From assembly GCA_000002435.2 (NCBI GenBank), contig CM018793.1: a stretch of 64,000 bases of DNA; one strand, given 5' to 3'. Source of the stretch: Giardia intestinalis. Taxonomy: Eukaryota. Positions 1 through 55,432 of this stretch are shown piece by piece; the first letter of the stretch is position 1, and every line of letters starts with the position of its first letter. The position numbers and the translations under genes are program-made. A model generated the notes under the pieces. That model did no database searches. It had not been told where the DNA came from and saw only the letters and a program-made list of their open reading frames with translations.

Positions 1-584
1 ATGCTTTATGATACATGTTGTGTAGTTGCTAGTTGTCTGCGCACGGTAGCTATTCCTGTATGCCTCACTCTGTAATGGGTGAGATGATAAAAGTAGGAGA
101 AACTGGAAGGTAGTTGTGCAGGTAGTTTGGAGACTTCATTCTAGGAAGCGTCTACATGCTCCAAAGAAGCTGTGCAGACGTTGAAGCAAAGTGGGAGCGC
201 TCTCTTCTATCACACTCTAGAGGGATGCGCCCCGTGAAAGATAGCTCTTCTGAAGTCACGGAATCTTTGCTCTGTGACTACATTCTCGCGCCTGCAACCC
301 TCATTTTCATCTGAAGGCACGTTAGCCGTTAGCTTCTCCAGGCTTGCTCATTGGCTTTCTGAAAAAGGCATGAAAGGTGAGCTCTTCTGCTACTAAACTA
401 TGCTACATAAGTACCAGAGCAAAGGTGCAGCAATAACTGGGTCATAGCTTGAATTTCACTTCGAGGATAGAATTCAAGAACGGTAATGTGGATCGAAGTA
501 AAGCTCTAGTTACGTACGCGACATCCACATCTTATACAAGCATCGATGGTGCAGTAATAGCGTAGTCACGCACTAAATGTGAAT

Positions 585-591
585 ATTTACT
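585..591 (-). promoter_or_regulatory. putative polyadenylation signal (AGTAAAT on minus strand) for the kinase gene
   Basis: The plus-strand sequence atttact at 585-591 is the reverse complement of AGTAAAT. It lies 12 nt downstream of the kinase stop at 603-605. It matches the Giardia AGTRAAY poly(A) consensus, which is established knowledge. Confidence 0.4.
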
Positions 592-602
592 ACACTGTGT
601 AC

Positions 603-2231
603 TCAATAACGTGTGTCTCGTATTTTGGGGAGGAGTGCTCCCCGTGACTGGGGATTCTTGGGGATACCATATTTAGGAGGGTTTAGAAACATATTATTGC
701 CACCAACATTCATTACTGTCAGGCTATTACCCCTGGACGGTGCTTCTCGAACCTTCGCTGCTCGAGACCCTGACCGGGACGCAGGAAGAAACGGAAGTCC
801 ACTGTCTTCAACATTCAGCGCATAGTGGGACTGTCTGGTTGCATTTGAGATAGCTCGCGCTTGTGCAGCAGCTGGGGACAGGGATTGCTGGACAGGATAA
901 TGATAGTTAACAGTGTTGTGCACGCTGTGTGCAGGATAGTTTGTATGATGCTGACCAAAATTAGACATGACCATAGGTCCAGTAATATTTGACACGCCCA
1001 TAGTCGTACCTGATGGTCCTATTGTATGATAGGTGGAGTGACTGCTGCCAGGCTTCCCAGAAGAAGTTGGTACCGTAGTTGCTGGATACCCGATGCCTAA
1101 GCTGCTGGCCCCAATATTCTGCCCTGACTGTGCGGTGGGATTAATGGAATGGGATGAAGTAGTGTGTAGGTTGTGTTGAAGATTTTGCTGAAGTTGTGTG
1201 CTGCTTATGTCTCCTGACAATGTGTTTGATGAGTACTGGGGCTCCTTAACAAGGGGACGAATACCCATGTCTTCCATGCACTTCATTTCAAGCTGAAGCG
1301 CTCGCTGACGTACAGAATCAAAAAACTCGTGATCTAGACACTGTGTTGCGCTCGGCCTTTCCGCAGGGTCCATCTTCAACATCATTTTGAGAAGAGAGAT
1401 TGCTTGCTTGTCTTTTATTTTTCCTGTAAGCTTCTTCTCCAGTCCCTCGGGCCGCGAGGTAGGAAACTCCACGCCGATGAATTTGGGATTTCGCAAAAAC
1501 TTTTCCATCTGCTTCCGAGTAAGGTTTCCGAGTACACGCTGAATCAAGTACAGCTGATCCACGTCACTGTCCCCGGCAAAGAGAGGCTCTGATGTGATCA
1601 TTTCTGATATTATGAGGGCCGCCGCCCATATATCAACTGTTTGGTTATAGTCAGTAGCGTTCAGTAAGAGCTCCGGAGAGCGGTACCATCTAGTGGCAAC
1701 ATAGTCTGTCAAATTAGACTGAGGAAAATTCCCAGCAGCTCCAGCCGTTTGGGCACCGTTTATATGGCGCGCAAAGCCAAAATCACAGAGCTTTAATGTC
1801 CACTCACCATGCTTCTTGACTAGAAGAAGATTTTCCGGCTTCAAATCTCTGTGACATATCTCCATGAACTCCCACAAAAATTCGACACCACGAAGCATCT
1901 GAAAGGTTAGAAGCTTAACAGTTTCTATTGGAATCCCGCCAGGACTGTCTTCTATCAATTCTAAGAGGGTTTTCTCGCAATATTCAAAGACTAAATAGAG
2001 CCGTTGCTTGCGCTTGAAAGCCTCTTTGAGACATACTATATGAGGATGCTGCGCGTTTTTCAAGATCTTGACCTCCCGGAGTGTAGTCTTCTTGAAAGTA
2101 GAGTCTTCTGGGTCATCCGTATCTTTGAATTTCTTAATGGCAACCAGCTCGTTTGTCTCCTTATTCCTGCACTTTAAAACGACTCCATATGCTCCTTCCC
2201 CAGAGACGCCTAGGATCTCGTACTTGTTCAT
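603..2231 (-). CDS. Ser/Thr protein kinase, CDKL (cyclin-dependent kinase-like) family with TDY activation loop
   Basis: The translated ORF carries a GEGAYGVV glycine loop, VAIKKF, HRDLKPENLLL, DFGFAR and a TDYVATRWYRSPELLL activation loop, followed by a long S/T/Q-rich tail. It aligns convincingly with CDKL1/CDKL5 as I recall them. The track ORF begins further upstream at 2303. The first in-frame ATG with an AT-rich context (aatttaaaaag...ATG) is at 2231, giving MNKYEILG. Confidence 0.85.
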   Translation of the reverse strand: MNKYEILGVSGEGAYGVVLKCRNKETNELVAIKKFKDTDDPEDSTFKKTTLREVKILKNAQHPHIVCLKEAFKRKQRLYLVFEYCEKTLLELIEDSPGGIPIETVKLLTFQMLRGVEFLWEFMEICHRDLKPENLLLVKKHGEWTLKLCDFGFARHINGAQTAGAAGNFPQSNLTDYVATRWYRSPELLLNATDYNQTVDIWAAALIISEMITSEPLFAGDSDVDQLYLIQRVLGNLTRKQMEKFLRNPKFIGVEFPTSRPEGLEKKLTGKIKDKQAISLLKMMLKMDPAERPSATQCLDHEFFDSVRQRALQLEMKCMEDMGIRPLVKEPQYSSNTLSGDISSTQLQQNLQHNLHTTSSHSINPTAQSGQNIGASSLGIGYPATTVPTSSGKPGSSHSTYHTIGPSGTTMGVSNITGPMVMSNFGQHHTNYPAHSVHNTVNYHYPVQQSLSPAAAQARAISNATRQSHYALNVEDSGLPFLPASRSGSRAAKVREAPSRGNSLTVMNVGGNNMFLNPPKYGIPKNPQSRGALLPKIRDTRY

Positions 2232-47744: not shown

Positions 47745-49754
47745 ATGCGCCGAACATTTGTGCTCGTTGCGTCATCCGATATCCTTTGCGTCAGTTTCTG
47801 TCTTTCTCGTATCACCGGTGCTCCTCTTACAGCAACAACATTTCGCGCTCCCTCTGACGAAACTGCTGATCTTCGTCGACAACTGTTTTCTGGCCTACTC
47901 TCCGTCAGAAACAGGGTGGTCTTGCCCTGGATAGATATTATTAGTGAAGATAATGCGTCTTTTTGCGTGCTGACTAAGATGTCGACTGGTATGCCTCTGC
48001 CGATTTTTTGGAAAGTATATAGGGCAGTTGAGGGCTCTGATGCTGCTTTCAGAGTGATTCGTTTATTAGTAACATTTATACTCACTGTAGAAAATCAAGT
48101 ACAATCTTCACTTATAAAAATATTGGTGTACAGCTTAGCCAATTGTCACGACTTAACTGTTAACGGAGATGGGTTCCTCGTGCTGTATATAGATGGGCCC
48201 AAGCTAATTAGTCGTTTGCCACTCGTTATGAGACCAGTACTTGGTCTTCAACAGCAGTTTCTCTGGCGTATAATGACTCACCTTCTCAAAGACCCAGATA
48301 GAGTTGGTGATACTACAGTAGAGCCTCCATCACTGTCTCAATTACACGGTTGGCCGGATAAGGTACTTTACTTTTTGAGGGATTTGTGTGCATATCCGGT
48401 TGTTTTGTCTGTAGGTGTTGCTGATACTTGCTCTTATCTAAGCAGCTATCCCAACCCTTGGCACATCCCCTTGCACACACTGCGGGCAAACCCGGTTTCA
48501 AGCTCCCTCAACTCGGTACAATCGTCCGAGCTCTTTGGGGAATCTATGGAGCTGCTCAACACATACATCGATATGAACTCTCGGTTGCGACAGCCTGAGT
48601 TCAAGGGCCTCCTACTTACAGCCGAGATATACCCGTGGAAGATTCCCGTTGGTGCTCTGGCCCGAGCATATATGTACGGCAGGTCAACTCTTGCTGTGGA
48701 GGAAGCATTCTCCTTAGCCATGCAGCGAGGCAACTACGGCATCCTGGCTGGCATGGCACACCTTTGTAAGTCAACCAACATAAAGCTGACATCTCTTATG
48801 CTGGAAGTTCTGCGTCAAGCAGATCCTGATGTCTCATGCTGCAGCTTCGTCTTATCTGAAAAAGATAAAGAAACCTTATGGCTGAACTCCACACATGGGT
48901 ATTCTGCACTTATGTTTGCTGTATTGACACGCAATAAGACAATAGTCGAATGCATTTTGCCCCATGAAGTGACTATGACGAATGCCTGCGGACACAGTGC
49001 CCTCGCCATTGCCCGGCAGCTTAGGCTAGAGCCTATATGTGCTGTGCTTACGCGCTACCTTCCTACTTATGATGCATTTGGAAACACCTATTTACACACG
49101 GTTGTTCAAGAGAACGGCGAGAATACAGATGCAATTAAGCAACATATATTTCTTTCTCAGATACAAAATAGCGCAGGAGAGTACGCCATCATGATAGCCT
49201 ACCGGCTAAAGAAATATAAGGTCCTTTCTGTCCTTTCGCAGTCTGAAGGCCGCCTCGTCCATCCAGTGACTATTTGTCATAACAATCTATCTATCTCTAA
49301 ACTCTCTGTACTTCAGCTTGCTGCTCTTGATGGGGATGGTGCCGCTGTGCGTGCTGTTAAGCAATACGGTCACTCTGTTGTCACCGATCATGGCTACACT
49401 GCATTGATGTTTGCCGCCGAAAGAGGACACAGTGACATAGTTCGTGAGCTGGCTCCATTTGAGGCACGACAGACAAATGACGCGGGAAAGACAGCCTTGT
49501 TGTTGGCTATATGTGCCGGACACTTGGATGTGGTTAAGGTCTTGGCGGACTATGAGACAAGGCTAACAGATAGCACAGGGTGGTGCCCTCTTGAACAGGC
49601 AGTGAGACGTAGCAGAATAGGCATGGTCGAAGTGCTTGCACCATATGAGGCCAAGATCTTTGGGGCAAGGGCCATCGATGCAGTTGACTCATCAGCATTT
49701 ATTGCACAGGCTAACCGCCGTTCTATTAAGGAGATCATCAGAAAATACATGTGA
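47745..49754 (+). CDS. ankyrin-repeat protein (protein 21.1-type)
   Basis: The C-terminal half holds multiple ankyrin repeats (YSALMFAVLTRNKTIVECIL, HSALAIARQL, NTYLHTVVQENGENTDAI, YTALMFAAERGHSDIVRELA, KTALLLAICAGHLDVVKVLA, WCPLEQAVRRSRIGMVEVLA). An ATG is present at 47745. An alternative start at 47979 (MSTGMPLPIFWK) cannot be excluded. Confidence 0.7.
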   Translation: MRRTFVLVASSDILCVSFCLSRITGAPLTATTFRAPSDETADLRRQLFSGLLSVRNRVVLPWIDIISEDNASFCVLTKMSTGMPLPIFWKVYRAVEGSDAAFRVIRLLVTFILTVENQVQSSLIKILVYSLANCHDLTVNGDGFLVLYIDGPKLISRLPLVMRPVLGLQQQFLWRIMTHLLKDPDRVGDTTVEPPSLSQLHGWPDKVLYFLRDLCAYPVVLSVGVADTCSYLSSYPNPWHIPLHTLRANPVSSSLNSVQSSELFGESMELLNTYIDMNSRLRQPEFKGLLLTAEIYPWKIPVGALARAYMYGRSTLAVEEAFSLAMQRGNYGILAGMAHLCKSTNIKLTSLMLEVLRQADPDVSCCSFVLSEKDKETLWLNSTHGYSALMFAVLTRNKTIVECILPHEVTMTNACGHSALAIARQLRLEPICAVLTRYLPTYDAFGNTYLHTVVQENGENTDAIKQHIFLSQIQNSAGEYAIMIAYRLKKYKVLSVLSQSEGRLVHPVTICHNNLSISKLSVLQLAALDGDGAAVRAVKQYGHSVVTDHGYTALMFAAERGHSDIVRELAPFEARQTNDAGKTALLLAICAGHLDVVKVLADYETRLTDSTGWCPLEQAVRRSRIGMVEVLAPYEAKIFGARAIDAVDSSAFIAQANRRSIKEIIRKYM

Positions 49755-50361: not shown

Positions 50362-50856
50362 TTACTTAAAGAGCTTCAAATAGTTATCCACTAGTGTGTC
50401 CTTGTCAGTGTCAGCAAAAACGATGAAAGGCGGGAGCGGATCGCACTTGCAGAACTTGAAGCTTTGGTTAAAAGGCTTAGCTAAGTCGCTTGCAGAAAGT
50501 TCTCCGCCATAGCCTTCCATCTTCCCTCCGCACGTGCAGATGACACGGAACTTCTTGCCCGCGATCACGGCCTTGGAGCCGAAGGCCCACCCGTACGTCA
50601 GCACGCTATCCATAAAGACCTTAAGAGAAGGCGGTGATGAATACCAATGCACGGGGAACTGGAAGAAAACTGCGTCCGCCTTCTCTATGATCCTTTGCTC
50701 CTCGCTGACCTGCTCAGGGGTCATATGCAGGCTCGGGTAGAGCTCATCCAGCCAGCGGACTTTTACGTTTCCGAGCTTCTTGGCCTCCTCAACGAGGGGT
50801 GCGTTGACGACGCTCTTCAACTCCGCAGGGTGGGAGTAGTAGAGGACGATACGCAT
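50362..50856 (-). CDS. NAD(P)H oxidoreductase, flavodoxin-like fold (tandem paralog of the preceding gene)
   Basis: The protein reads MRIVLYYSHPAELKSVVNAPLVEEAKKLGNVKVRWLDELYPSLHMTPEQVSEEQRIIEKADAVFFQFPVHWYSSPPSLKVFMDSVL. It is roughly half identical to the neighbouring paralog by eye. The ATG at 50856 is preceded by ccgtttaaaa. The track start at 50886 is TTG. Confidence 0.8.
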   Translation of the reverse strand: MRIVLYYSHPAELKSVVNAPLVEEAKKLGNVKVRWLDELYPSLHMTPEQVSEEQRIIEKADAVFFQFPVHWYSSPPSLKVFMDSVLTYGWAFGSKAVIAGKKFRVICTCGGKMEGYGGELSASDLAKPFNQSFKFCKCDPLPPFIVFADTDKDTLVDNYLKLFK

Positions 50857-50904
50857 TTTTAAACGGCTGAATAATATCAACCACAATAATTTGAGGCAAA
50901 TTGT

Positions 50905-51678
50905 TTATAGCCATATGAGGCAAACGATAAGAATGACCCCAAAGACAATCGCTAATGTCAAATATTTGCAGTCATTGTGACGGCAGAGAAGGCGAGAGGC
51001 TGCCTTGGCACGGCCCGTCGCAACCCTTGCATCTGCAGTTCGAGCATCAATATCCGCACCCAGGTCATCAATCAGTCGAGCATCTTCGTCTAGCCCAGCA
51101 CGGAGTAAAATCTGGTGGTGTTTGAGCTTTGTAACAGGGTCTTGCAGATTCGCTGCCATGGAAACCAGCTCCTGCATCTTAGAAGCCTGGTCGTGCGCCC
51201 TTTCCCATGCATCTATGGCTGCCATTCCCCCTCCCATCTTCTTCGCACTCATGGAATTGATAGCTTTTACAACTGTCTGCTTGAGCGCCACATATTCTTC
51301 AATATACCCATTGAGGATCTTTGTCTGCTGCATGGTGTTCGCATTCTCTAACGACCCTCCCGCCTTCATGTCCTGGTGACGAGCCTTTTCGCTGGAGTGA
51401 ACCCCGGTGCCGCCACCTGTATCCGCGCCTTCGTCGGTGCCAAGGCCAGCATCAGCGTCATCCTCTAGGCTCGGACTCACGCCTTGCAGATGTGTCTTCG
51501 TCTCCAAAAGACGCATTAGGGTCGTCTCGATCTCCCGCCGGATAATGGTGCCCTGGCTCTCCAGCCCCGGGTCGAACCCTACAGACCGAGAAACGGCCTG
51601 TGTAAATCCTTGCACACGTGATTCCAGTGCAGGCAGCTCCCTGCTAATCTTATAGTCGATCTCAATGAAACTGTACAT
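50905..51678 (-). CDS. tail-anchored coiled-coil protein, SNARE-like (Q/R-SNARE candidate)
   Basis: A C-terminal single TM (YLTLAIVFGVILIVCLIWL) sits at the extreme end. It is preceded by a roughly 55-aa heptad segment (ILLRAGLDEDARLIDDLGADIDARTADARVATGRAKAASRLL), the typical SNARE-motif-plus-tail-anchor layout. There is also an N-terminal helical region and an acidic/Gly-rich linker. The start is a true ATG with an AT-rich upstream. Confidence 0.35.
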   Translation of the reverse strand: MYSFIEIDYKISRELPALESRVQGFTQAVSRSVGFDPGLESQGTIIRREIETTLMRLLETKTHLQGVSPSLEDDADAGLGTDEGADTGGGTGVHSSEKARHQDMKAGGSLENANTMQQTKILNGYIEEYVALKQTVVKAINSMSAKKMGGGMAAIDAWERAHDQASKMQELVSMAANLQDPVTKLKHHQILLRAGLDEDARLIDDLGADIDARTADARVATGRAKAASRLLCRHNDCKYLTLAIVFGVILIVCLIWL

Positions 51679-51720: not shown

Positions 51721-54084
51721 TCACTCGCGCACGTCTAGAAGCACCAGGTAGGAGAAAAGAAAGACCAAGAGAGACATTATGATCTTAGACATGTGGAAGG
51801 GAGACCGAAAAAGGAACAACACCCATGCTGAATAGAACAGGCCCATGCTTATGGCATAGGCACACACGTTGCGTTGCGATATACAGAAGTTGAAAATGTG
51901 AGAGTGGAAAATACGACGGCATACACAGACAGAGCAAAAGTAGCAATACGTCCCCTGCTCAGGTTTCAAACAGGTTGAGCACAGATGGCTAGCCTCTGGT
52001 AATGCACTATCAGGTTTCACGGAAACCAAAACTCCGGCTAAATGCTGTCTATTTTCCTTGTCGCTGGAGAGGTCAAAAGGTGGCCGAGGTTCTACTGTAT
52101 AGAGGCAGTTGGCAGATCGGGTGAGCGACCTCGACACCAGAACATCACAGATCCTATAGACGGGTTCGGCGCTCATGATAGCCGAACAGGATGCAGAAGT
52201 GTCCGGAGTGTGTGTGCCTGTGCCTGTGCCTGTACCTGTACTTGTACCTGCATCAGTGTGCTCTTCTATCATCCTCCGGCTATTCCACATGTCATCGGAG
52301 AACCTTGAACTTTGCATGAAATCGTTCTTCGCTAGCGATATTGATGCCGTGCGGTCCAACCGCAAAGCATAGGTAGTAATAAAGAACAATGCTGAGAAGA
52401 CAACAGATACTAAAGAGCCTATTTGCAAGGTAAAATTATAGAGCCTGTGCTCAAGCAAGGTGCGTAGAGATGGTAGTAAGAAAAGCATGTAATTCTGCAC
52501 CCGTTTTGAAGTATGTGTCTGTATCGGCAGCTGAGTAGATTGATCTAAAAATAACTCGATCAGAATGCTGATTCCCAATCCAAGAAGCGATGCGGCATAC
52601 AGCAATATACCTGTATATCTAGATAGGCAGTCCAGGACTATGCCATACGTTGAACAGGTATTAGTGAGTATCTTGCAAGCAAGGGAATTTGGACACACGC
52701 AAGACAGATCAGAATTCATACAACACCCCTGCTGCATGAACCTCCGAGCTGACCTCTTATCAGATGCTGTGTAAACCATCTGCATAGAGCCGCAAATTTT
52801 CGCTTTGCAGAACTTCTCCGCTGCCCGAAAGAGCATTTTCTTTTCTGCGATTGACCTAGATATTATGAAATTGTAAATGTTGTGATACTGTTCTGTGTAA
52901 AATAAAAGCTCAATTACGCTACATCCCCTTGCAAAGGCATGTAGCAGAGGTAACTGCATATGTGGCTCATCATCTATTTTTAGGGGAAGCATTGTTACCA
53001 ACAGGTCGTCGGCTATAGAATGCTTTATCAAAAGGGACACTATGTCTCTGTTACTATAGAGTATGGCAAGGGCGAGGGCATTCGTCTGCAGGTTTCCAAA
53101 CCTGTGCTGCAGCTGCTTGCGGAGTGCAGTTTCTCCACCGATCTCCTTAATTAAATGGACTATGGCCGATACACAGTCAATAGAGTTAGACGAAATAGCA
53201 CAGCTTAAAAGATTGATGTTCGTGTCTTTTGTGAGTACGTCAATCATCCCCTTGTCATACTGCAGCAGCCAGAGGACACAGGAAAGGCGACCATTGAGGG
53301 CGGCAGCATGTATAGGAAGCATGCCGCAGGTGTCATAAGCATAGCAAAGAGGTGTCTCCGTGTCCTCGCCAGTCGTTAATTTGGAGGACATTAGGTATGA
53401 AAGACTATCAAAGTTGACCGCAGAGAGTGTGTGCATATCATTCGTTATGATAAGGTCGCGAAAGCTAACCCCTCCTCCAAACTGTGAATAGACTGAGAGA
53501 ATATACTTAATAATAAATGTGTTACCACGAATAATAGCTAACTGGAGGAGCCTTGTAACGTCCACAACATTCATTATGCTAAGTACGCAGTGGGCCTGCA
53601 ATGTTTGACTAAACAAGCTTGTAGCGAATTCATCTATGTAGAAGTTTGCTGAAATCACCATGGGCTCAGCAGAATGTCTATCAGTCAGTGCCGCCAACTC
53701 AATGGGCAGGAGCTGAAGAGAATTCGAGGACCTCGTCTCAAGCAGGAGTCGGAGTGAATCTGGACACGATTTTCTTAGGTCAAGTAAGCTGTATGTTGTG
53801 ATCTCTCCTAACACTATCAGATGCGCAATGTTGAATCCCCGCAGCGTAAAAGAACCGATATCATCTATTGATGCATTCTGAATACTAGCAAATCCGTTCT
53901 CGTTCAGACGCTGTACAGCTCCGGTGGGATTGTCCGGTTTAGTATCCTCGAACTTACGGCAATCTAAAACAGCTCTGGCCAGGGTAGAGTCGACATTATC
54001 CTCGAGCTCTTCGAGGGTCGAGGGAGCGACTACACAAAGATCATTTTGAGTCCTAATCCCCATGCGCCGGATTAGCTCAAAAGG
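51721..54084 (-). CDS. ankyrin-repeat membrane protein with a degenerate DHHC-type cysteine-rich domain (AKR1/ZDHHC13/17-like architecture, catalytic Cys apparently lost)
   Basis: Ankyrin repeats (MLPIHAAALNGRLSCVLWLL, NLLSCAISSNSIDCVSAIVHLI, NALALAILYSNRDIVSLLI) are followed by TM segments (ILLYAASLLGLGISILIELFL, LQIGSLVSVVFSALFFITTYAL). Near the C-terminus, CSTCLKPEQGTYCYFCSVCVCRRIFHSHIFNFCISQRN parallels the DHHC-CRD C-x2-C-x9-HC-x2-C-x2-C-x4-DHHC-x5-C-x4-N, but has HSHI where DHHC should be. Two further TMs follow. Start choice is uncertain: in-frame ATGs occur at 54405, 54177 and 54084. The ATG at 54084 has the best AT-rich context (aaaatattaATG) and avoids overlap with the phosphatase gene. 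Confidence 0.45.
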   Translation of the reverse strand, partial: PFELIRRMGIRTQNDLCVVAPSTLEELEDNVDSTLARAVLDCRKFEDTKPDNPTGAVQRLNENGFASIQNASIDDIGSFTLRGFNIAHLIVLGEITTYSLLDLRKSCPDSLRLLLETRSSNSLQLLPIELAALTDRHSAEPMVISANFYIDEFATSLFSQTLQAHCVLSIMNVVDVTRLLQLAIIRGNTFIIKYILSVYSQFGGGVSFRDLIITNDMHTLSAVNFDSLSYLMSSKLTTGEDTETPLCYAYDTCGMLPIHAAALNGRLSCVLWLLQYDKGMIDVLTKDTNINLLSCAISSNSIDCVSAIVHLIKEIGGETALRKQLQHRFGNLQTNALALAILYSNRDIVSLLIKHSIADDLLVTMLPLKIDDEPHMQLPLLHAFARGCSVIELLFYTEQYHNIYNFIISRSIAEKKMLFRAAEKFCKAKICGSMQMVYTASDKRSARRFMQQGCCMNSDLSCVCPNSLACKILTNTCSTYGIVLDCLSRYTGILLYAASLLGLGISILIELFLDQSTQLPIQTHTSKRVQNYMLFLLPSLRTLLEHRLYNFTLQIGSLVSVVFSALFFITTYALRLDRTASISLAKNDFMQSSRFSDDMWNSRRMIEEHTDAGTSTGTGTGTGTHTPDTSASCSAIMSAEPVYRICDVLVSRSLTRSANCLYTVEPRPPFDLSSDKENRQHLAGVLVSVKPDSALPEASHLCSTCLKPEQGTYCYFCSVCVCRRIFHSHIFNFCISQRNVCAYAISMGLFYSAWVLFLFRSPFHMSKIIMSLLVFLFSYLVLLDVRE
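52207..52250. repeat. imperfect (GT/AC)n-(GCCTGT)n microsatellite inside coding sequence (encodes TGTGTGTGTH on the minus strand)
   Basis: The sequence gtgtgtgtgcctgtgcctgtgcctgtacctgtacttgtacctg is read directly. On the coding minus strand it translates as a Thr-Gly dipeptide repeat within a disordered linker of the ankyrin/DHHC-like protein. Confidence 0.6.
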
Positions 54085-54175
54085 CATTAATATTTTAGGG
54101 TGCCATAAAACAGAAACGGCCGCTTCAAAAAATCGGCACTGTAAAAAAAGCCGTTGGGCCGAAATTTGAGGAGCC

Positions 54176-55432
54176 ATGGGTATGACACATTCCTTCATCA
54201 CAGAGTGGGATAATACCCCCAAGACCAAGATGCGTTTTAGTCGGGAGGTAAGCTTTGCAGAACTCCAAAGGGTGACCAACTGTATGGCTAAGCACGAAAT
54301 TCCCAGCATTGAGGACTTTATATGGGTGCTTAAGGAAGCTGCTAAGGTTCTTTCCACTTTACCAAATAATGTCCACGTGATTCCTGAGCCTAATGACCGC
54401 CTCATCTTTGTTGGGGATTTGCACGGGTGCTTTGAGACATTGATACGTTTATTCCTTGGGTATCCGCAACAAAATATCCCCAGAACGGGCTTCCCAGGTG
54501 AGATAGTTGATGGCAGACGCCTTGTTTACTTTTTCAACGGAGACTTTGTTGACCGAGGAGGGTCTGGATATCAGATTGTCTTCCTCCTGGCGTACATGGC
54601 AATTGCCTGCCCTGGTTCGTGCTATCTAAATCGCGGAAATCACGAGTCCGAAATGTTCGGTCTTTCGACGCAGGGCATGCTTGGGAACAAGTTCATGTCG
54701 GAGATGGCTGGTAAATTTTCTGGAATGGACCCGGAGACGTACAGGCCAGCTATTGGCGAATTCTTTTGCGCCCTTCCCATTGCCCACACCATAGATCGCA
54801 ATATATTTATGGTGCACGGTGGGGTACCCCTGGGAGACGACCTCAGTAATGTTCCGCGAGCTGCTCCGCAATCGTATTTCAGCACCGGGTCGCCTGCCCC
54901 CATACCCAAGGGGCTCAAGCCATACAAGATAAGCAACCTGGACAACCTAACTCCCTCACGCCAAAAAACAACGAACTTTGAAGACAATCCTCGCAAACAA
55001 AATGAGCTCTGGCACTCCTTTGTCTGGAACTATGACCGTCTACCGTACAGCGCCGACTTCATGGAAGAGAATAATTTCAAGACTATGGTTCACTCACATA
55101 CGGCCACCCCGTTCCACCAGATAACGTCCTTCCTTCCGCTTGAGAAAACCTCGGGAGAAAAGTACTCCATCCAATCGGTCATTAAGAACCAGGAGATGTT
55201 CGATAGAATGAAGGCTTTCTTCGCGAGCCACCAACTAGCAAACAGCAGTAAGCTCTCCATCTTGGAAATCTTCTCTTCTCCCACTAATAACGGGACTGTG
55301 TACGCAGCCTGTGTTGACGCCGTCCCCGGGGAGCCAGGCCAACGCATCAACTACGACCCCTTCCAGTGGACTTACATCTTCTTGGGTAACGCATCAGAGT
55401 ATAACTTTATACAGCAAGGAACCACGTACTAG
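54176..55432 (+). CDS. PPP-family Ser/Thr protein phosphatase (calcineurin-like metallophosphoesterase fold) with insertions
   Basis: The protein carries GDLHG (VGDLHGCFETL), GDFVDRG, GNHE (NRGNHESEMF) and HGG (MVHGGVP) in canonical order. The pre-GDLHG region resembles the PP1 N-terminus. ATG candidates are at 54176, 54182, 54230 (MRFSREVSFAELQRV, which gives a PP1-like 57-aa lead) and 54284. The C-terminal 120 aa or so are a non-canonical extension. Confidence 0.75.
   Translation: MGMTHSFITEWDNTPKTKMRFSREVSFAELQRVTNCMAKHEIPSIEDFIWVLKEAAKVLSTLPNNVHVIPEPNDRLIFVGDLHGCFETLIRLFLGYPQQNIPRTGFPGEIVDGRRLVYFFNGDFVDRGGSGYQIVFLLAYMAIACPGSCYLNRGNHESEMFGLSTQGMLGNKFMSEMAGKFSGMDPETYRPAIGEFFCALPIAHTIDRNIFMVHGGVPLGDDLSNVPRAAPQSYFSTGSPAPIPKGLKPYKISNLDNLTPSRQKTTNFEDNPRKQNELWHSFVWNYDRLPYSADFMEENNFKTMVHSHTATPFHQITSFLPLEKTSGEKYSIQSVIKNQEMFDRMKAFFASHQLANSSKLSILEIFSSPTNNGTVYAACVDAVPGEPGQRINYDPFQWTYIFLGNASEYNFIQQGTTY

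What the first reader, a model, noticed from the sequence alone, without database searches (positions are those of the whole stretch)
51721..54084. Ankyrin-repeat protein fused to a degenerate DHHC-like cysteine-rich membrane module
The architecture (N-terminal ankyrin repeats, then TM helices, then CSTC-x8-CYFCSVCVC-RRIF-HSHI-FNF-C-ISQR-N, then two TM helices) mirrors ankyrin-DHHC palmitoyltransferases such as AKR1 and ZDHHC13/17. The catalytic DHHC tetrapeptide is replaced by HSHI and the spacings are shortened. This could be a palmitoyltransferase pseudoenzyme or scaffold, or a lineage-specific active-site variant. A (GT)n-derived Thr-Gly repeat sits in the linker.
Basis: inference. Interest (0 to 1): 0.6.

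Follow-up and report, generated by a model that had tools for sequence, protein, structure and literature searches.

The report
Giardia ankyrin protein with dead DHHC domain
This Giardia gene encodes a membrane protein with ankyrin repeats and a zinc-finger domain inherited from the enzymes that attach fatty acids to proteins, but all three catalytic residues are gone, so it is most likely a non-catalytic scaffold that the published list of nine Giardia enzymes of this type missed.

Summary
Window 51721..54087 (- strand) encodes a 788-aa protein identical to Giardia intestinalis WB XP_037902142.1, "Ankyrin repeat protein 1". It has ankyrin repeats (Pfam Ank_2, E 2e-11), two hydrophobic helices, a fast-evolving 125-aa linker, a Cys-rich domain, then two more helices, and it ends there.

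The Cys-rich domain is a true but very divergent DHHC domain:
- Pfam DHHC is sub-threshold (E 0.0023; 18.4 bits against a 28.7 cutoff).
- A profile search of 1.84 billion proteins found only three non-Giardia hits. All are DHHC-family proteins, and two carry ankyrin repeats that were not in the query.
- hhalign gives 97% probability.
- The only two PDB hits are palmitoyltransferases.

The Asp-His-Cys catalytic triad is therefore lost, while the Zn-binding second His and six of the seven other expected zinc ligands are kept. The DPG, TTxE and PaCCT motifs are absent. The domain is under strong purifying selection (pN/pS about 0.1) across four Giardia lineages.

The best reading is a catalytically dead ankyrin-DHHC pseudoenzyme acting as a membrane scaffold, like the role recently proposed for ZDHHC13. 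The scaffold function is inferred. The fold could not be checked because the AlphaFold models were poor.

The parts
51721..54087 (-). Complete coding sequence, 788 aa plus stop. It is identical to Giardia intestinalis WB XP_037902142.1 / KAE8304711.1, 'Ankyrin repeat protein 1'.
   Evidence: ORF. AT-rich initiator and ATG at 54087. Orthologues start at the same Met. Exact identity to P0005, with names.
53353..54087 (-). N-terminal 245 aa. This is the best conserved part of the protein and matches no recognised domain. It is predicted helical at low confidence and may be degenerate repeats.
   Evidence: 83-90% identity and pN/pS 0.10-0.15. No Pfam hit at E<=1. No meaningful PDB hit.
53020..53556 (-). 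Ankyrin-repeat region, residues about 178-356. The Pfam-significant core is residues 246-311 (window 53155..53352).
   Evidence: Ank_2 E 2.2e-11, and Ank_5, Ank_3, Ank_4 and Ank all above their cutoffs. Alignments to DARPins and consensus ankyrin proteins span this region.
52654..52725 (-). Invariant juxtamembrane cysteine cluster (GCCM..CVC..ACK..C, residues 455-478), just upstream of the first helix. These are candidate S-acylation sites (inference).
   Evidence: Invariant columns in the five-sequence alignment. Positions.
52549..52617 (-). Predicted transmembrane helix 1 (residues 491-513).
   Evidence: Kyte-Doolittle 19-residue window peak of 2.16. The same segment is found in the orthologues.
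52363..52437 (-). Predicted transmembrane helix 2 (residues 551-575).
   Evidence: Kyte-Doolittle peak of 2.05. Also found in the orthologues.
51988..52362 (-). A poorly conserved linker of 125 aa between helix 2 and the Cys-rich domain. It is an insertion relative to canonical DHHC proteins.
   Evidence: 32-47% identity and pN/pS 0.49-0.58. It has no counterpart in the relatives in alignment A8.
52213..52250 (-). Hexanucleotide (ACAGGY)n repeat encoding the Thr-Gly run, inside the linker. Its length varies between assemblage-A isolates.
   Evidence: TRF period 6, 6.3 copies. DNA. Three length alleles among cluster members. The repeat is absent in the other assemblages.
51856..51981 (-). Degenerate DHHC-type cysteine-rich zinc-finger domain (residues 703-744): C-x2-C-x7-YC-x2-C-x2-C-x4-IFHS-x5-C-x4-N-x3-Y.
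   Evidence: Pfam DHHC E 0.0023, 18.4 bits, below the 28.7 cutoff. The only PDB profile hits are ERF2 and ZDHHC5. Library-wide hits are P0036-38. hhalign 97.3%, E 2e-11. The pattern is unique in the window and absent from 50,000 shuffles. pN/pS 0.08-0.15.
51901..51912 (-). I726-F727-H728-S729, the position of the DHHC tetrapeptide. Asp, the first His and the catalytic Cys are replaced. Only the second His is kept.
   Evidence: HMMER, BLASTP, MAFFT and hhalign all give the same register. The tetrapeptide is invariant in all four Giardia lineages.
51808..51867 (-). Predicted transmembrane helix 3 (residues 741-760). It aligns with the helix that follows the Cys-rich domain in DHHC proteins.
   Evidence: Hydropathy. 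The hhalign and BLASTP alignments extend into it.
51733..51792 (-). Predicted transmembrane helix 4 (residues 766-785). The protein ends three residues later, so there is no TTxE or PaCCT tail.
   Evidence: Hydropathy. Alignment A8 shows the relatives continuing about 100 residues further, with LT.NE / NRHRYRYL / FKNPF motifs.

Best explanation
The gene encodes a polytopic membrane protein descended from an ankyrin-repeat DHHC S-acyltransferase, the broad group that holds yeast Akr1 and human ZDHHC13/17. It has lost the chemistry of that family and kept the scaffold.

**What is shown:**
- The topology fits a DHHC protein. The N-terminal ankyrin region, two helices, a cytosolic loop carrying the Cys-rich domain and two more helices follow in the expected order.
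- The domain keeps seven of the eight expected zinc-ligand positions: both CxxC cysteines, the C-x2-C-x2-C cysteines, the second His of DHHC and the Cys five residues after the motif. It also keeps the conserved Asn.
- The Asp-His-Cys catalytic triad reads Ile-Phe-(His)-Ser.
- The DPG, TTxE and PaCCT motifs are missing, and the protein stops right after helix 4.
- The domain is nevertheless under strong purifying selection.

**What is inferred:**
- The protein cannot form the acyl-thioester intermediate and so is not an S-acyltransferase by the canonical mechanism.
- It works as a membrane-anchored adaptor. The ankyrin and N-terminal regions would bind client proteins. The folded zinc domain with its helices would hold them at a membrane or dock onto one of the nine active Giardia DHHC enzymes, which would perform the acylation.
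- This is the non-canonical mode recently proposed for ZDHHC13.
For: **Identity and organism.** The protein is identical to G. intestinalis WB XP_037902142.1.

**Ankyrin repeats.** Pfam Ank families are significant.

**Homology of the Cys-rich domain to DHHC.**
- Pfam DHHC E 0.0023, and it is the only non-ankyrin family reported.
- The PDB profile search returns only ERF2 (8hfc) and ZDHHC5 (9oa6).
- The search of 1.84 billion representatives with the C-terminal profile returns only P0036, P0037 and P0038 besides the Giardia family. P0036 and P0037 match Pfam DHHC at about 1e-27, and P0038 at 5e-6. P0036 and P0038 also carry ankyrin repeats that were not in the query.
- hhalign gives 97.3% probability, E 2e-11.

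**Register.** DHHC aligns with IFHS, and the zinc-ligand columns are invariant across seven sequences.

**Which residues are catalytic.** The triad is Asp153, His154 and Cys156 in DHHC20. TTxE contacts the active site and PaCCT stabilises the C-terminal domain (PMC9006032).

**Missing tail.** The protein ends after helix 4.

**Selection.** The ORF is intact in four lineages. pN/pS is 0.08-0.15 in the Cys-rich domain and 0.5-0.6 in the linker. Synteny is conserved.

**Precedent.** ZDHHC13 orthologues naturally read DQHC, DQHS or DHHS. A Cys-to-Ser ZDHHC13 still supports substrate acylation, which suggests it scaffolds another enzyme (bioRxiv 10.64898/2026.04.20.719575).
Against: - Pfam DHHC is below the gathering threshold, so by Pfam's own rule this is not a family member.
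- The fold was not confirmed. Both AlphaFold2 models are poor (mean pLDDT 38 and 43), and Foldseek on the first returned only noise.
- The first zinc-ligand His is Tyr in Giardia, so one zinc site may be altered.
- There is no expression, localisation, interaction or acylation data for this protein, so the scaffold role is purely inferred.
- The invariant H-S-H around the former catalytic position leaves room for a residual or different chemistry. So does the recurrence of Ser at that position in unrelated lineages.
- No orthologue was found outside G. intestinalis, so the age of the inactivation is unknown.
Confidence: 0.72

Rival explanations
1. It is still an active acyltransferase with a lineage-specific active site. 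Ser729, flanked by His728 and His730, could form an oxy-ester acyl intermediate. Alternatively another conserved Cys, such as C723 in CVC, could take over as nucleophile.
For: - H728-S729-H730 and C723 are invariant in all four Giardia lineages, and the domain has the lowest pN/pS of the protein.
- Ser at the catalytic position recurs in other natural DHHC-like proteins: P0036 DHHS, P0050 DHYS, and the ciliate clade IFHS/IYHS/LFHS. This could reflect selection for Ser rather than mere loss.
Against: - Asp and the first His of the triad are replaced by Ile and Phe, which cannot activate a nucleophile (triad definition in PMC9006032).
- H728 aligns with the second, zinc-binding His. That assignment rests on my recollection of the DHHC20 structure (Rana et al. 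2018).
- Cys-to-Ser is the standard catalytically dead mutant of these enzymes. The DQHS and DHHS forms of ZDHHC13 are judged incapable of catalysis.
- TTxE, which contacts the active site, is absent.
Confidence: 0.12
2. The Cys-rich segment is an unrelated zinc finger (RING, PHD, B-box) or a Giardia-style CXXC-rich segment. Its resemblance to DHHC would then be chance in a Cys-rich sequence.
For: - Pfam DHHC is sub-threshold (18.4 against 28.7 bits).
- The E-values against individual PDB chains are weak (0.24 and 1.1).
- Giardia encodes many CXXC-rich membrane proteins (general knowledge).
Against: - No other zinc-finger family is reported even at E<=10.
- Every hit in three independent unbiased searches is a DHHC protein.
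- hhalign gives 97% against two separate clades.
- The spacing from the HC-equivalent position to the conserved Asn is exactly canonical, and the match runs on into the following transmembrane helix.
- The pattern occurs in 0 of 50,000 shuffles.
Confidence: 0.04
3. The C-terminal module is a decaying relic without function. The gene would be drifting towards a pseudogene, and only the ankyrin part would matter.
For: - The gene evolves fast overall: 68-70% identity between assemblages.
- The linker and helices 1-2 are weakly constrained (pN/pS 0.3-0.6).
- The C-terminal tail has been lost.
- A length-variable repeat sits in the coding region.
Against: - The reading frame is intact in all four lineages and in many isolates.
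- The Cys-rich domain and helices 3-4 are among the most constrained parts of the protein. pN/pS is 0.08-0.15 in the Cys-rich domain and 0.06-0.15 in helices 3-4 in five of the six lineage pairs (0.37 in the A-B pair), with synonymous sites saturated.
- Repeat alleles differ by whole hexamers and so preserve the frame.
Confidence: 0.04

Closest known systems
ZDHHC13 (HIP14L), the ankyrin-repeat DHHC protein of vertebrates proposed to be a pseudoenzyme (bioRxiv 10.64898/2026.04.20.719575)
   Same: - N-terminal ankyrin repeats followed by a membrane-embedded DHHC-type Cys-rich domain.
- A non-canonical active site, with Ser naturally replacing the catalytic Cys in some lineages (DHHS in ray-finned fish, DQHS in chicken).
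- It evolves faster than its active relatives.
- It is proposed to act by scaffolding another acyltransferase.
   Different: - ZDHHC13 keeps Asp and usually the Cys, keeps the TTxE and PaCCT motifs, has six helices and passes the family models.
- The Giardia protein has lost Asp, the first His and the Cys together (IFHS).
- It has no DPG, TTxE or PaCCT motif, has four helices and carries a 125-aa insertion before the Cys-rich domain.
- It scores below Pfam's cutoff.
- There is no evidence of orthology. The loss is independent and lies in a metamonad.
Yeast Akr1 / human ZDHHC17 (HIP14): active ankyrin-repeat DHHC S-acyltransferases
   Same: - The domain order is the same: ankyrin repeats, helices, cytosolic Cys-rich domain, helices.
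- The best distant hit (P0036) and its relatives have the LT.NE / N.RRY..F / NPF..G...N...F tail that I recall as typical of this group. That recollection was not tested here.
   Different: - These proteins are active enzymes (DHHC or DHYC) with six helices and the TTxE and PaCCT motifs.
- Their ankyrin domain binds the zDABM peptide motif.
- The Giardia ankyrin region shows no specific similarity to theirs. The listed PDB hits (the best 60 of 100) were almost all designed ankyrin proteins, plus generic ankyrin-repeat proteins such as ankyrin-1/2, ASB9 and espin; none was ZDHHC17.
The nine annotated Giardia DHHC proteins (Merino et al. 2014, PMC4109852)
   Same: Same organism and same superfamily. 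All are polytopic membrane proteins with a cytosolic Cys-rich domain.
   Different: - Those nine were found with the Pfam DHHC model and have DHHC, or DHYC in one case, plus the DPG and TTxE motifs.
[quoted passage not shown]
- This gene is a tenth, ankyrin-bearing and catalytically degenerate relative that such a search misses.
- None of the nine appeared among the significant hits of the library-wide search.
Uncultured rumen-ciliate ankyrin + DHHC-like proteins (P0038, P0047-49, L008 ORF)
   Same: - Ankyrin repeats, two helices, a Cys-rich domain and two helices.
- The DHHC position reads [IL][FY]HS, including the identical string RIFHS.
- The TTxE motif is degenerate.
- hhalign against the Giardia domain gives 97.2%.
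   Different: - The ciliate proteins keep the first zinc-ligand His, the canonical loop length and a conserved C-terminal tail of about 60 aa.
- They are no closer to Giardia than the DHHC/DHHS clade of P0036 is (hhalign scores 69 and 71). The shared IFHS may therefore be convergent.

Membership tests
DHHC palmitoyltransferase family (Pfam PF01529) | Score at or above Pfam's gathering threshold for PF01529 | tested here: not met
   18.4 bits against a cutoff of 28.7, E 0.0023. Residues 700-760 (788-aa numbering) match profile positions 5-69 of 133.
DHHC palmitoyltransferase family (Pfam PF01529) | Statistically supported homology of the Cys-rich domain to bona fide DHHC domains | tested here: met
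   Library-wide hmmsearch gives E 7e-6 and 2e-4 to proteins that match PF01529 at about 1e-27. hhalign gives 97.3%, E 2e-11. The only PDB hits are ERF2 and ZDHHC5.
DHHC palmitoyltransferase family (Pfam PF01529) | Asp-His-His-Cys motif supplying the Asp/His/Cys catalytic triad | tested here: not met
   The aligned tetrapeptide is IFHS in all four Giardia lineages. The triad definition is from PMC9006032.
DHHC palmitoyltransferase family (Pfam PF01529) | Two CCHC zinc sites: C-x2-C-x9-HC-x2-C-x2-C-x4-DHHC-x5-C | tested here: inconclusive
   Seven of the eight ligand positions are conserved and invariant. The first His is Tyr and its loop is two residues shorter. An extra invariant Cys (C723) might compensate. 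Metal binding cannot be tested here.
DHHC palmitoyltransferase family (Pfam PF01529) | Four-helix core with the Cys-rich domain in the cytosolic loop between helices 2 and 3 | tested here: met
   Hydropathy finds two segments before and two after the domain, in the window protein and in all orthologues. This is hydropathy only, not a dedicated topology predictor. A 125-aa insertion separates helix 2 from the domain.
DHHC palmitoyltransferase family (Pfam PF01529) | DPG motif after helix 2, and TTxE and PaCCT motifs after helix 4 | tested here: not met
   No DPG-like motif follows helix 2. The protein ends three residues after helix 4, whereas the relatives continue with LT.NE and NPF..G..NW..F.
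DHHC palmitoyltransferase family (Pfam PF01529) | DHHC fold: three stacked beta-hairpins with two zinc ions, packed on a tepee of helices | tested here: inconclusive
   The AlphaFold2 models have mean pLDDT 38 and 43. The second model predicts short strands at 713-737 followed by two helices, at pLDDT only 57-66. Foldseek returned noise.
Ankyrin-repeat DHHC subgroup (Akr1 / ZDHHC13 / ZDHHC17) | N-terminal ankyrin repeats on the same polypeptide as the DHHC domain | tested here: met
   Ank_2 E 2.2e-11 and four other Ank models are above their cutoffs. Two of the three distant hits to the ankyrin-free query also carry ankyrin repeats.
Ankyrin-repeat DHHC subgroup (Akr1 / ZDHHC13 / ZDHHC17) | Six transmembrane helices, with the domain between helices 4 and 5 | tested here: not met
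   Only four hydrophobic segments are found. The protist ankyrin-DHHC relatives P0036 and P0038 also show two before and two after the domain.
Ankyrin-repeat DHHC subgroup (Akr1 / ZDHHC13 / ZDHHC17) | Ankyrin pocket that binds the zDABM motif (Asn100 / Trp130 of ZDHHC17) | not tested
   No alignment to the ZDHHC17 ankyrin domain was obtained. The listed PDB hits (best 60 of 100) were mostly designed ankyrin proteins plus generic ankyrin-repeat proteins, and none was ZDHHC17.
Pseudoenzyme (catalytically dead homologue kept by selection) | Homology to an enzyme family, loss of catalytic residues, and purifying selection on the degenerate domain | tested here: met
   Homology. Triad lost. pN/pS 0.08-0.15 in the domain with saturated synonymous sites and intact ORFs in four lineages. 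Lack of activity is inferred, not measured.

The most novel reading that the evidence does not exclude
The [I/L][F/Y]HS signature shared by Giardia and rumen ciliates marks an old, unrecognised branch of ankyrin-DHHC proteins that was retooled rather than merely inactivated. Examples would be a Ser/His-based O-acyl enzyme, or an acyl-CoA or lipid-sensing membrane receptor that partners with active DHHC enzymes in anaerobic gut protists.
Probability: 0.08. Interest if true: 0.75.

Novelty: new variant of a known kind. Interest (0 to 1): 0.45.

Why it matters
- **Giardia's enzyme census.** Giardia has a small set of S-acylation enzymes. Nine are published, and all were reported to lack ankyrin repeats. 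S-acylation matters there for surface-antigen (VSP) biology and for encystation.
- **A tenth relative.** A conserved, ankyrin-bearing and catalytically stripped relative changes that census. It offers a natural, extreme case of a DHHC pseudoenzyme in a very divergent eukaryote.
- **A test of the scaffold idea.** It could test the recently proposed idea that ankyrin-DHHC proteins recruit substrates for other acyltransferases without using their own active site.
- **Which positions the fold needs.** It shows which positions survive when catalysis is lost: the zinc ligands, the second His and the Asn.
- **Limits.** The finding rests on sequence inference only. The gene itself is already in the databases under a generic name.

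Tried and rejected
1. **AlphaFold2 of the C-terminal 319 aa** with four sequences gave pLDDT 38 and pTM 0.21. Foldseek against the PDB returned only GPCR-like noise at E>3. This is unusable.
2. **AlphaFold2 of the full length** with a 15-row alignment that included the distant relatives gave pLDDT 43. It was too poor for a fold search, so I did not spend another one.
3. **The full-length protein search** found only G. intestinalis orthologues. No orthologue from G. muris or any other diplomonad surfaced in any search. No eukaryotic genome collection was available to check this directly.
4. **The N-terminal 245 aa** gave no Pfam hit at E<=1 and one spurious PDB hit. That region remains unassigned.
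5. **The 257-aa tail-anchored neighbour** was tested as a possible SNARE-type client. It has no Pfam family, so I dropped the idea.
6. **A specific Giardia-ciliate relationship**, suggested by the shared RIFHS, is not supported. The hhalign scores to the ciliate clade and to the DHHC/DHHS clade are equal (69 and 71).
7. **My first regular expression** had a wrong spacing and found nothing.
8. **The GiardiaDB gene number and any published localisation or expression data** for this gene could not be retrieved with the tools.


Full report
**What is there.** The window is Giardia intestinalis (assemblage A, WB). The protein encoded at 51721..54087 on the - strand is identical, residue for residue, to XP_037902142.1 / KAE8304711.1, "Ankyrin repeat protein 1". 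The 894-aa ORF listed mechanically equals an old UniParc entry (P0007). That longer ORF overlaps the divergently transcribed calcineurin-like phosphoesterase gene at 54176..55432. The real start is the ATG at 54087, which follows an AT-rich initiator, and all orthologues start there. Orthologues were found only in other G. intestinalis lineages. These are assemblage B (68-69% identity) and two further lineages from runs ERR3333382 and ERR3333383 (67-70%). Gene order is conserved: phosphoesterase, then this gene, then a 253-257-aa gene.

**Anatomy (788-aa numbering).**
- Residues 1-245 are the most conserved part (83-90% identity). They match no Pfam family at E<=1 and no solved structure.
- The ankyrin repeats are significant at 246-311 (Ank_2 E 2.2e-11, and four more Ank models above cutoff). 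Alignments to designed ankyrin proteins span about 178-356.
- An invariant cysteine cluster (GCCM..CVC..ACK..C, 455-478) precedes the first hydrophobic helix.
- Hydropathy gives four helices, at 491-513, 551-575, 741-760 and 766-785. The same four are found in every orthologue.
- Between helix 2 and the Cys-rich domain lies a 125-aa linker that is only 32-47% identical between lineages.
- The linker holds the Thr-Gly run. Its DNA is a hexanucleotide repeat (ACAGGY)n, TRF period 6, at 52213..52250. It is not (GT)n. Assemblage-A isolates carry three length alleles that differ by whole hexamers.
- The Cys-rich domain is residues 703-744: CSTC LKPEQGT YC YF C SV C VCRR IFHS HIFNF C ISQR N VCA Y.
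- The protein ends three residues after helix 4.

**Is the Cys-rich domain a DHHC domain?** Four independent tests point the same way.
1. Pfam reports DHHC as the only non-ankyrin family at E<=10. It is below the gathering threshold (E 0.0023; 18.4 against 28.7 bits).
2. A profile of the domain plus helices 3-4 from four Giardia lineages matches only two of 177,635 PDB sequences at E<=10. Both are palmitoyltransferases: yeast ERF2 (8hfc) and human ZDHHC5 (9oa6).
3. A profile of the C-terminal 319 aa, with no ankyrin repeats, was scored against all 1.84 billion representative proteins. It returned only three proteins besides the Giardia family, at E 7e-6, 2e-4 and 8e-4. P0036 and P0037 match Pfam DHHC at about 1e-27, and P0038 at 5e-6. 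P0036 and P0038 also have N-terminal ankyrin repeats.
4. hhalign of the Giardia domain gives 97.3% (E 2e-11) against an alignment of P0036, its relatives, P0050 and P0037. It gives 97.2% against the P0038 clade.

The zinc-ligand pattern occurs once in the six frames of the window and in none of 50,000 shuffles of the protein. One caveat applies: the comparison alignments were built from proteins reached through the Giardia profile. The fold itself could not be verified. Both AlphaFold2 runs were of low confidence (pLDDT 38 and 43), and the one Foldseek search gave noise.

**Active-site register.** HMMER, BLASTP, MAFFT and hhalign all align DHHC with I726-F727-H728-S729.
- With the correct register the spacing is canonical from the HC-equivalent position onward: YC-x2-C-x2-C-x4-IFHS-x5-C-x4-N-x3-Y. 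Only the loop after CxxC is two residues short.
- Seven columns are invariant across Giardia, P0036, P0037 and P0038. They are the two CxxC cysteines, the three cysteines of C-x2-C-x2-C, the second His of DHHC and the Cys after x5. The conserved Asn is also invariant.
- In DHHC20 the catalytic triad is Asp153, His154 and Cys156, and two structural zinc ions hold the domain together (PMC9006032).
- That the second His is a zinc ligand is my recollection of Rana et al. 2018, not something tested here.
- The Giardia protein has therefore replaced exactly the three catalytic residues and kept the structural ones. The exception is the first ligand His, which is Tyr.
- It also lacks a DPG motif after helix 2. 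Because it ends after helix 4, it lacks the TTxE and PaCCT motifs that its relatives still show (LT.NE, NRHRYRYL, FKNPF.KG..NW..F).

**Is it a live gene?** Yes. The frame is intact in four lineages whose synonymous sites are saturated (pS 0.6-0.95). The table gives pN/pS by region.

| Region | pN/pS |
|---|---|
| Cys-rich domain | 0.08-0.15 |
| Helices 3-4 | 0.06-0.15 (one pair 0.37) |
| N-terminal region | 0.10-0.15 |
| Ankyrin region | 0.12-0.21 |
| Helices 1-2 | 0.31-0.63 |
| Linker | 0.49-0.58 |

The degenerate domain is thus one of the most constrained parts.

**Mechanism.**
- Shown: the homology, the topology by hydropathy, the loss of the triad and of the C-terminal motifs, and the purifying selection.
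- Inferred: the protein cannot make the acyl-thioester intermediate. It acts as a membrane-anchored adaptor whose ankyrin and N-terminal regions bind clients. Its zinc domain and helices would either simply anchor it or dock it to one of the active Giardia DHHC enzymes.
- The closest precedent is ZDHHC13. Its orthologues read DQHC, DQHS or DHHS, and a Cys-to-Ser mutant still promotes huntingtin acylation. Its authors propose that it is a pseudoenzyme that scaffolds another acyltransferase (bioRxiv 10.64898/2026.04.20.719575).
- The invariant juxtamembrane Cys cluster at 455-478 could itself be acylated. This is speculation.
- The main rival is a retooled active site using Ser729 or Cys723. It is not excluded, but it is disfavoured because Ile and Phe cannot replace the Asp-His pair.

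**Comparison with the literature.** Merino et al. 2014 searched the Giardia proteome with the Pfam DHHC model. They found nine proteins and stated that none has ankyrin repeats (PMC4109852). A 2018 review repeats the count of nine (PMC6115752). This gene is annotated only as an ankyrin-repeat or hypothetical protein, and the precomputed Pfam lists for it and its orthologues show only Ank families. In the papers I could search, the DHHC relationship is not described.

**Wider context found on the way.**
- P0038 and its relatives (P0047-49 and the ORF on L008) are ankyrin plus DHHC-like proteins whose motif reads IFHS, IYHS or LFHS.
- They come from cattle-rumen metagenomes.
- L008 is a 1.9-kb, 19% GC, single-gene contig that ends in (GGGGATT)n. 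This is the (CCCCAAT)n telomere reported for Entodinium caudatum (PMC6211341). These are therefore gene-sized chromosomes of rumen ciliates.
- The P0036 clade shows DHHC, DHHS, DFHC, DHYC and DHYS.
- Loss of the catalytic Cys in ankyrin-DHHC proteins therefore seems to have happened repeatedly in protists.
- The Giardia domain is equally distant from both clades (hhalign scores 69 and 71), so the shared RIFHS string may be convergent.

**Verdict.** The finding is a more extreme variant of a known kind, of moderate interest. It rests on sequence evidence only, with the fold and the function untested.

Noticed in passing
L008 1..1911 (ORF 69..1736); also P0038 and P0047-P0049 (L001, L005-L007): A clade of ankyrin + DHHC-like proteins from cattle-rumen metagenomes has IFHS, IYHS or LFHS in place of DHHC. 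L008 is a 19% GC single-gene contig ending in (GGGGATT)n, which matches the (CCCCAAT)n telomere of Entodinium-type ciliates. It is therefore a gene-sized ciliate chromosome. The string RIFHS is identical to Giardia's, but profile scores show no special affinity.
   Followed up: partly
P0036, P0050-P0054 (metagenome proteins; no window coordinates): The clade of the best distant hit has an Akr1/ZDHHC17-like C-terminal tail. Its active-site motif varies from protein to protein: DHHC, DHHS, DFHC, DHYC and DHYS. One member also lacks a zinc-ligand Cys. This suggests repeated natural inactivation in an unidentified protist group.
   Followed up: partly
window 53353..54087 (-), residues 1-245: The N-terminal 245 aa are the most conserved part of the protein (83-90% identity; pN/pS 0.10-0.15). 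They match no Pfam family at E<=1 and no solved structure. Their role is unexplained.
   Followed up: partly
window 52654..52725 (-), residues 455-478: An invariant cysteine cluster (GCCM..CVC..ACK..C) lies 13-35 residues before the first transmembrane helix. This placement is typical of S-acylated juxtamembrane cysteines, so the protein may itself be a palmitoylation substrate.
   Followed up: no
window 52213..52250: The coding hexanucleotide repeat (ACAGGY)n has three length alleles among assemblage-A isolates (GTSTGTGTGTGT, GTSTGTGTGT and GTGTGT). It is absent from the other assemblages and could serve as a strain-typing marker.
   Followed up: yes
window 54088..54405 (-) and 54176..55432 (+): The upstream 106 codons of the mechanical 894-aa ORF overlap the divergent calcineurin-like phosphoesterase gene. 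They correspond to an obsolete gene model (UPI000018C039). The true intergenic spacer is only 88 bp.
   Followed up: yes
window 50905..51678 (-): A 257-aa protein with a C-terminal hydrophobic tail anchor lies 42 bp downstream, in conserved synteny in the two other lineages whose contigs reach that far (L002 and L004; the L003 contig ends just inside the gene). It has no Pfam family. I considered it as a SNARE-like neighbour but found no support.
   Followed up: partly
window 47745..49754 (+) and 50362..50886 (-): Two nearby genes were noted. One is another ankyrin-repeat protein (Ank_2 E 2.8e-26). The other is a flavodoxin-like-fold / FMN-reductase-type protein (Flavodoxin_2 E 3.5e-31).
   Followed up: no
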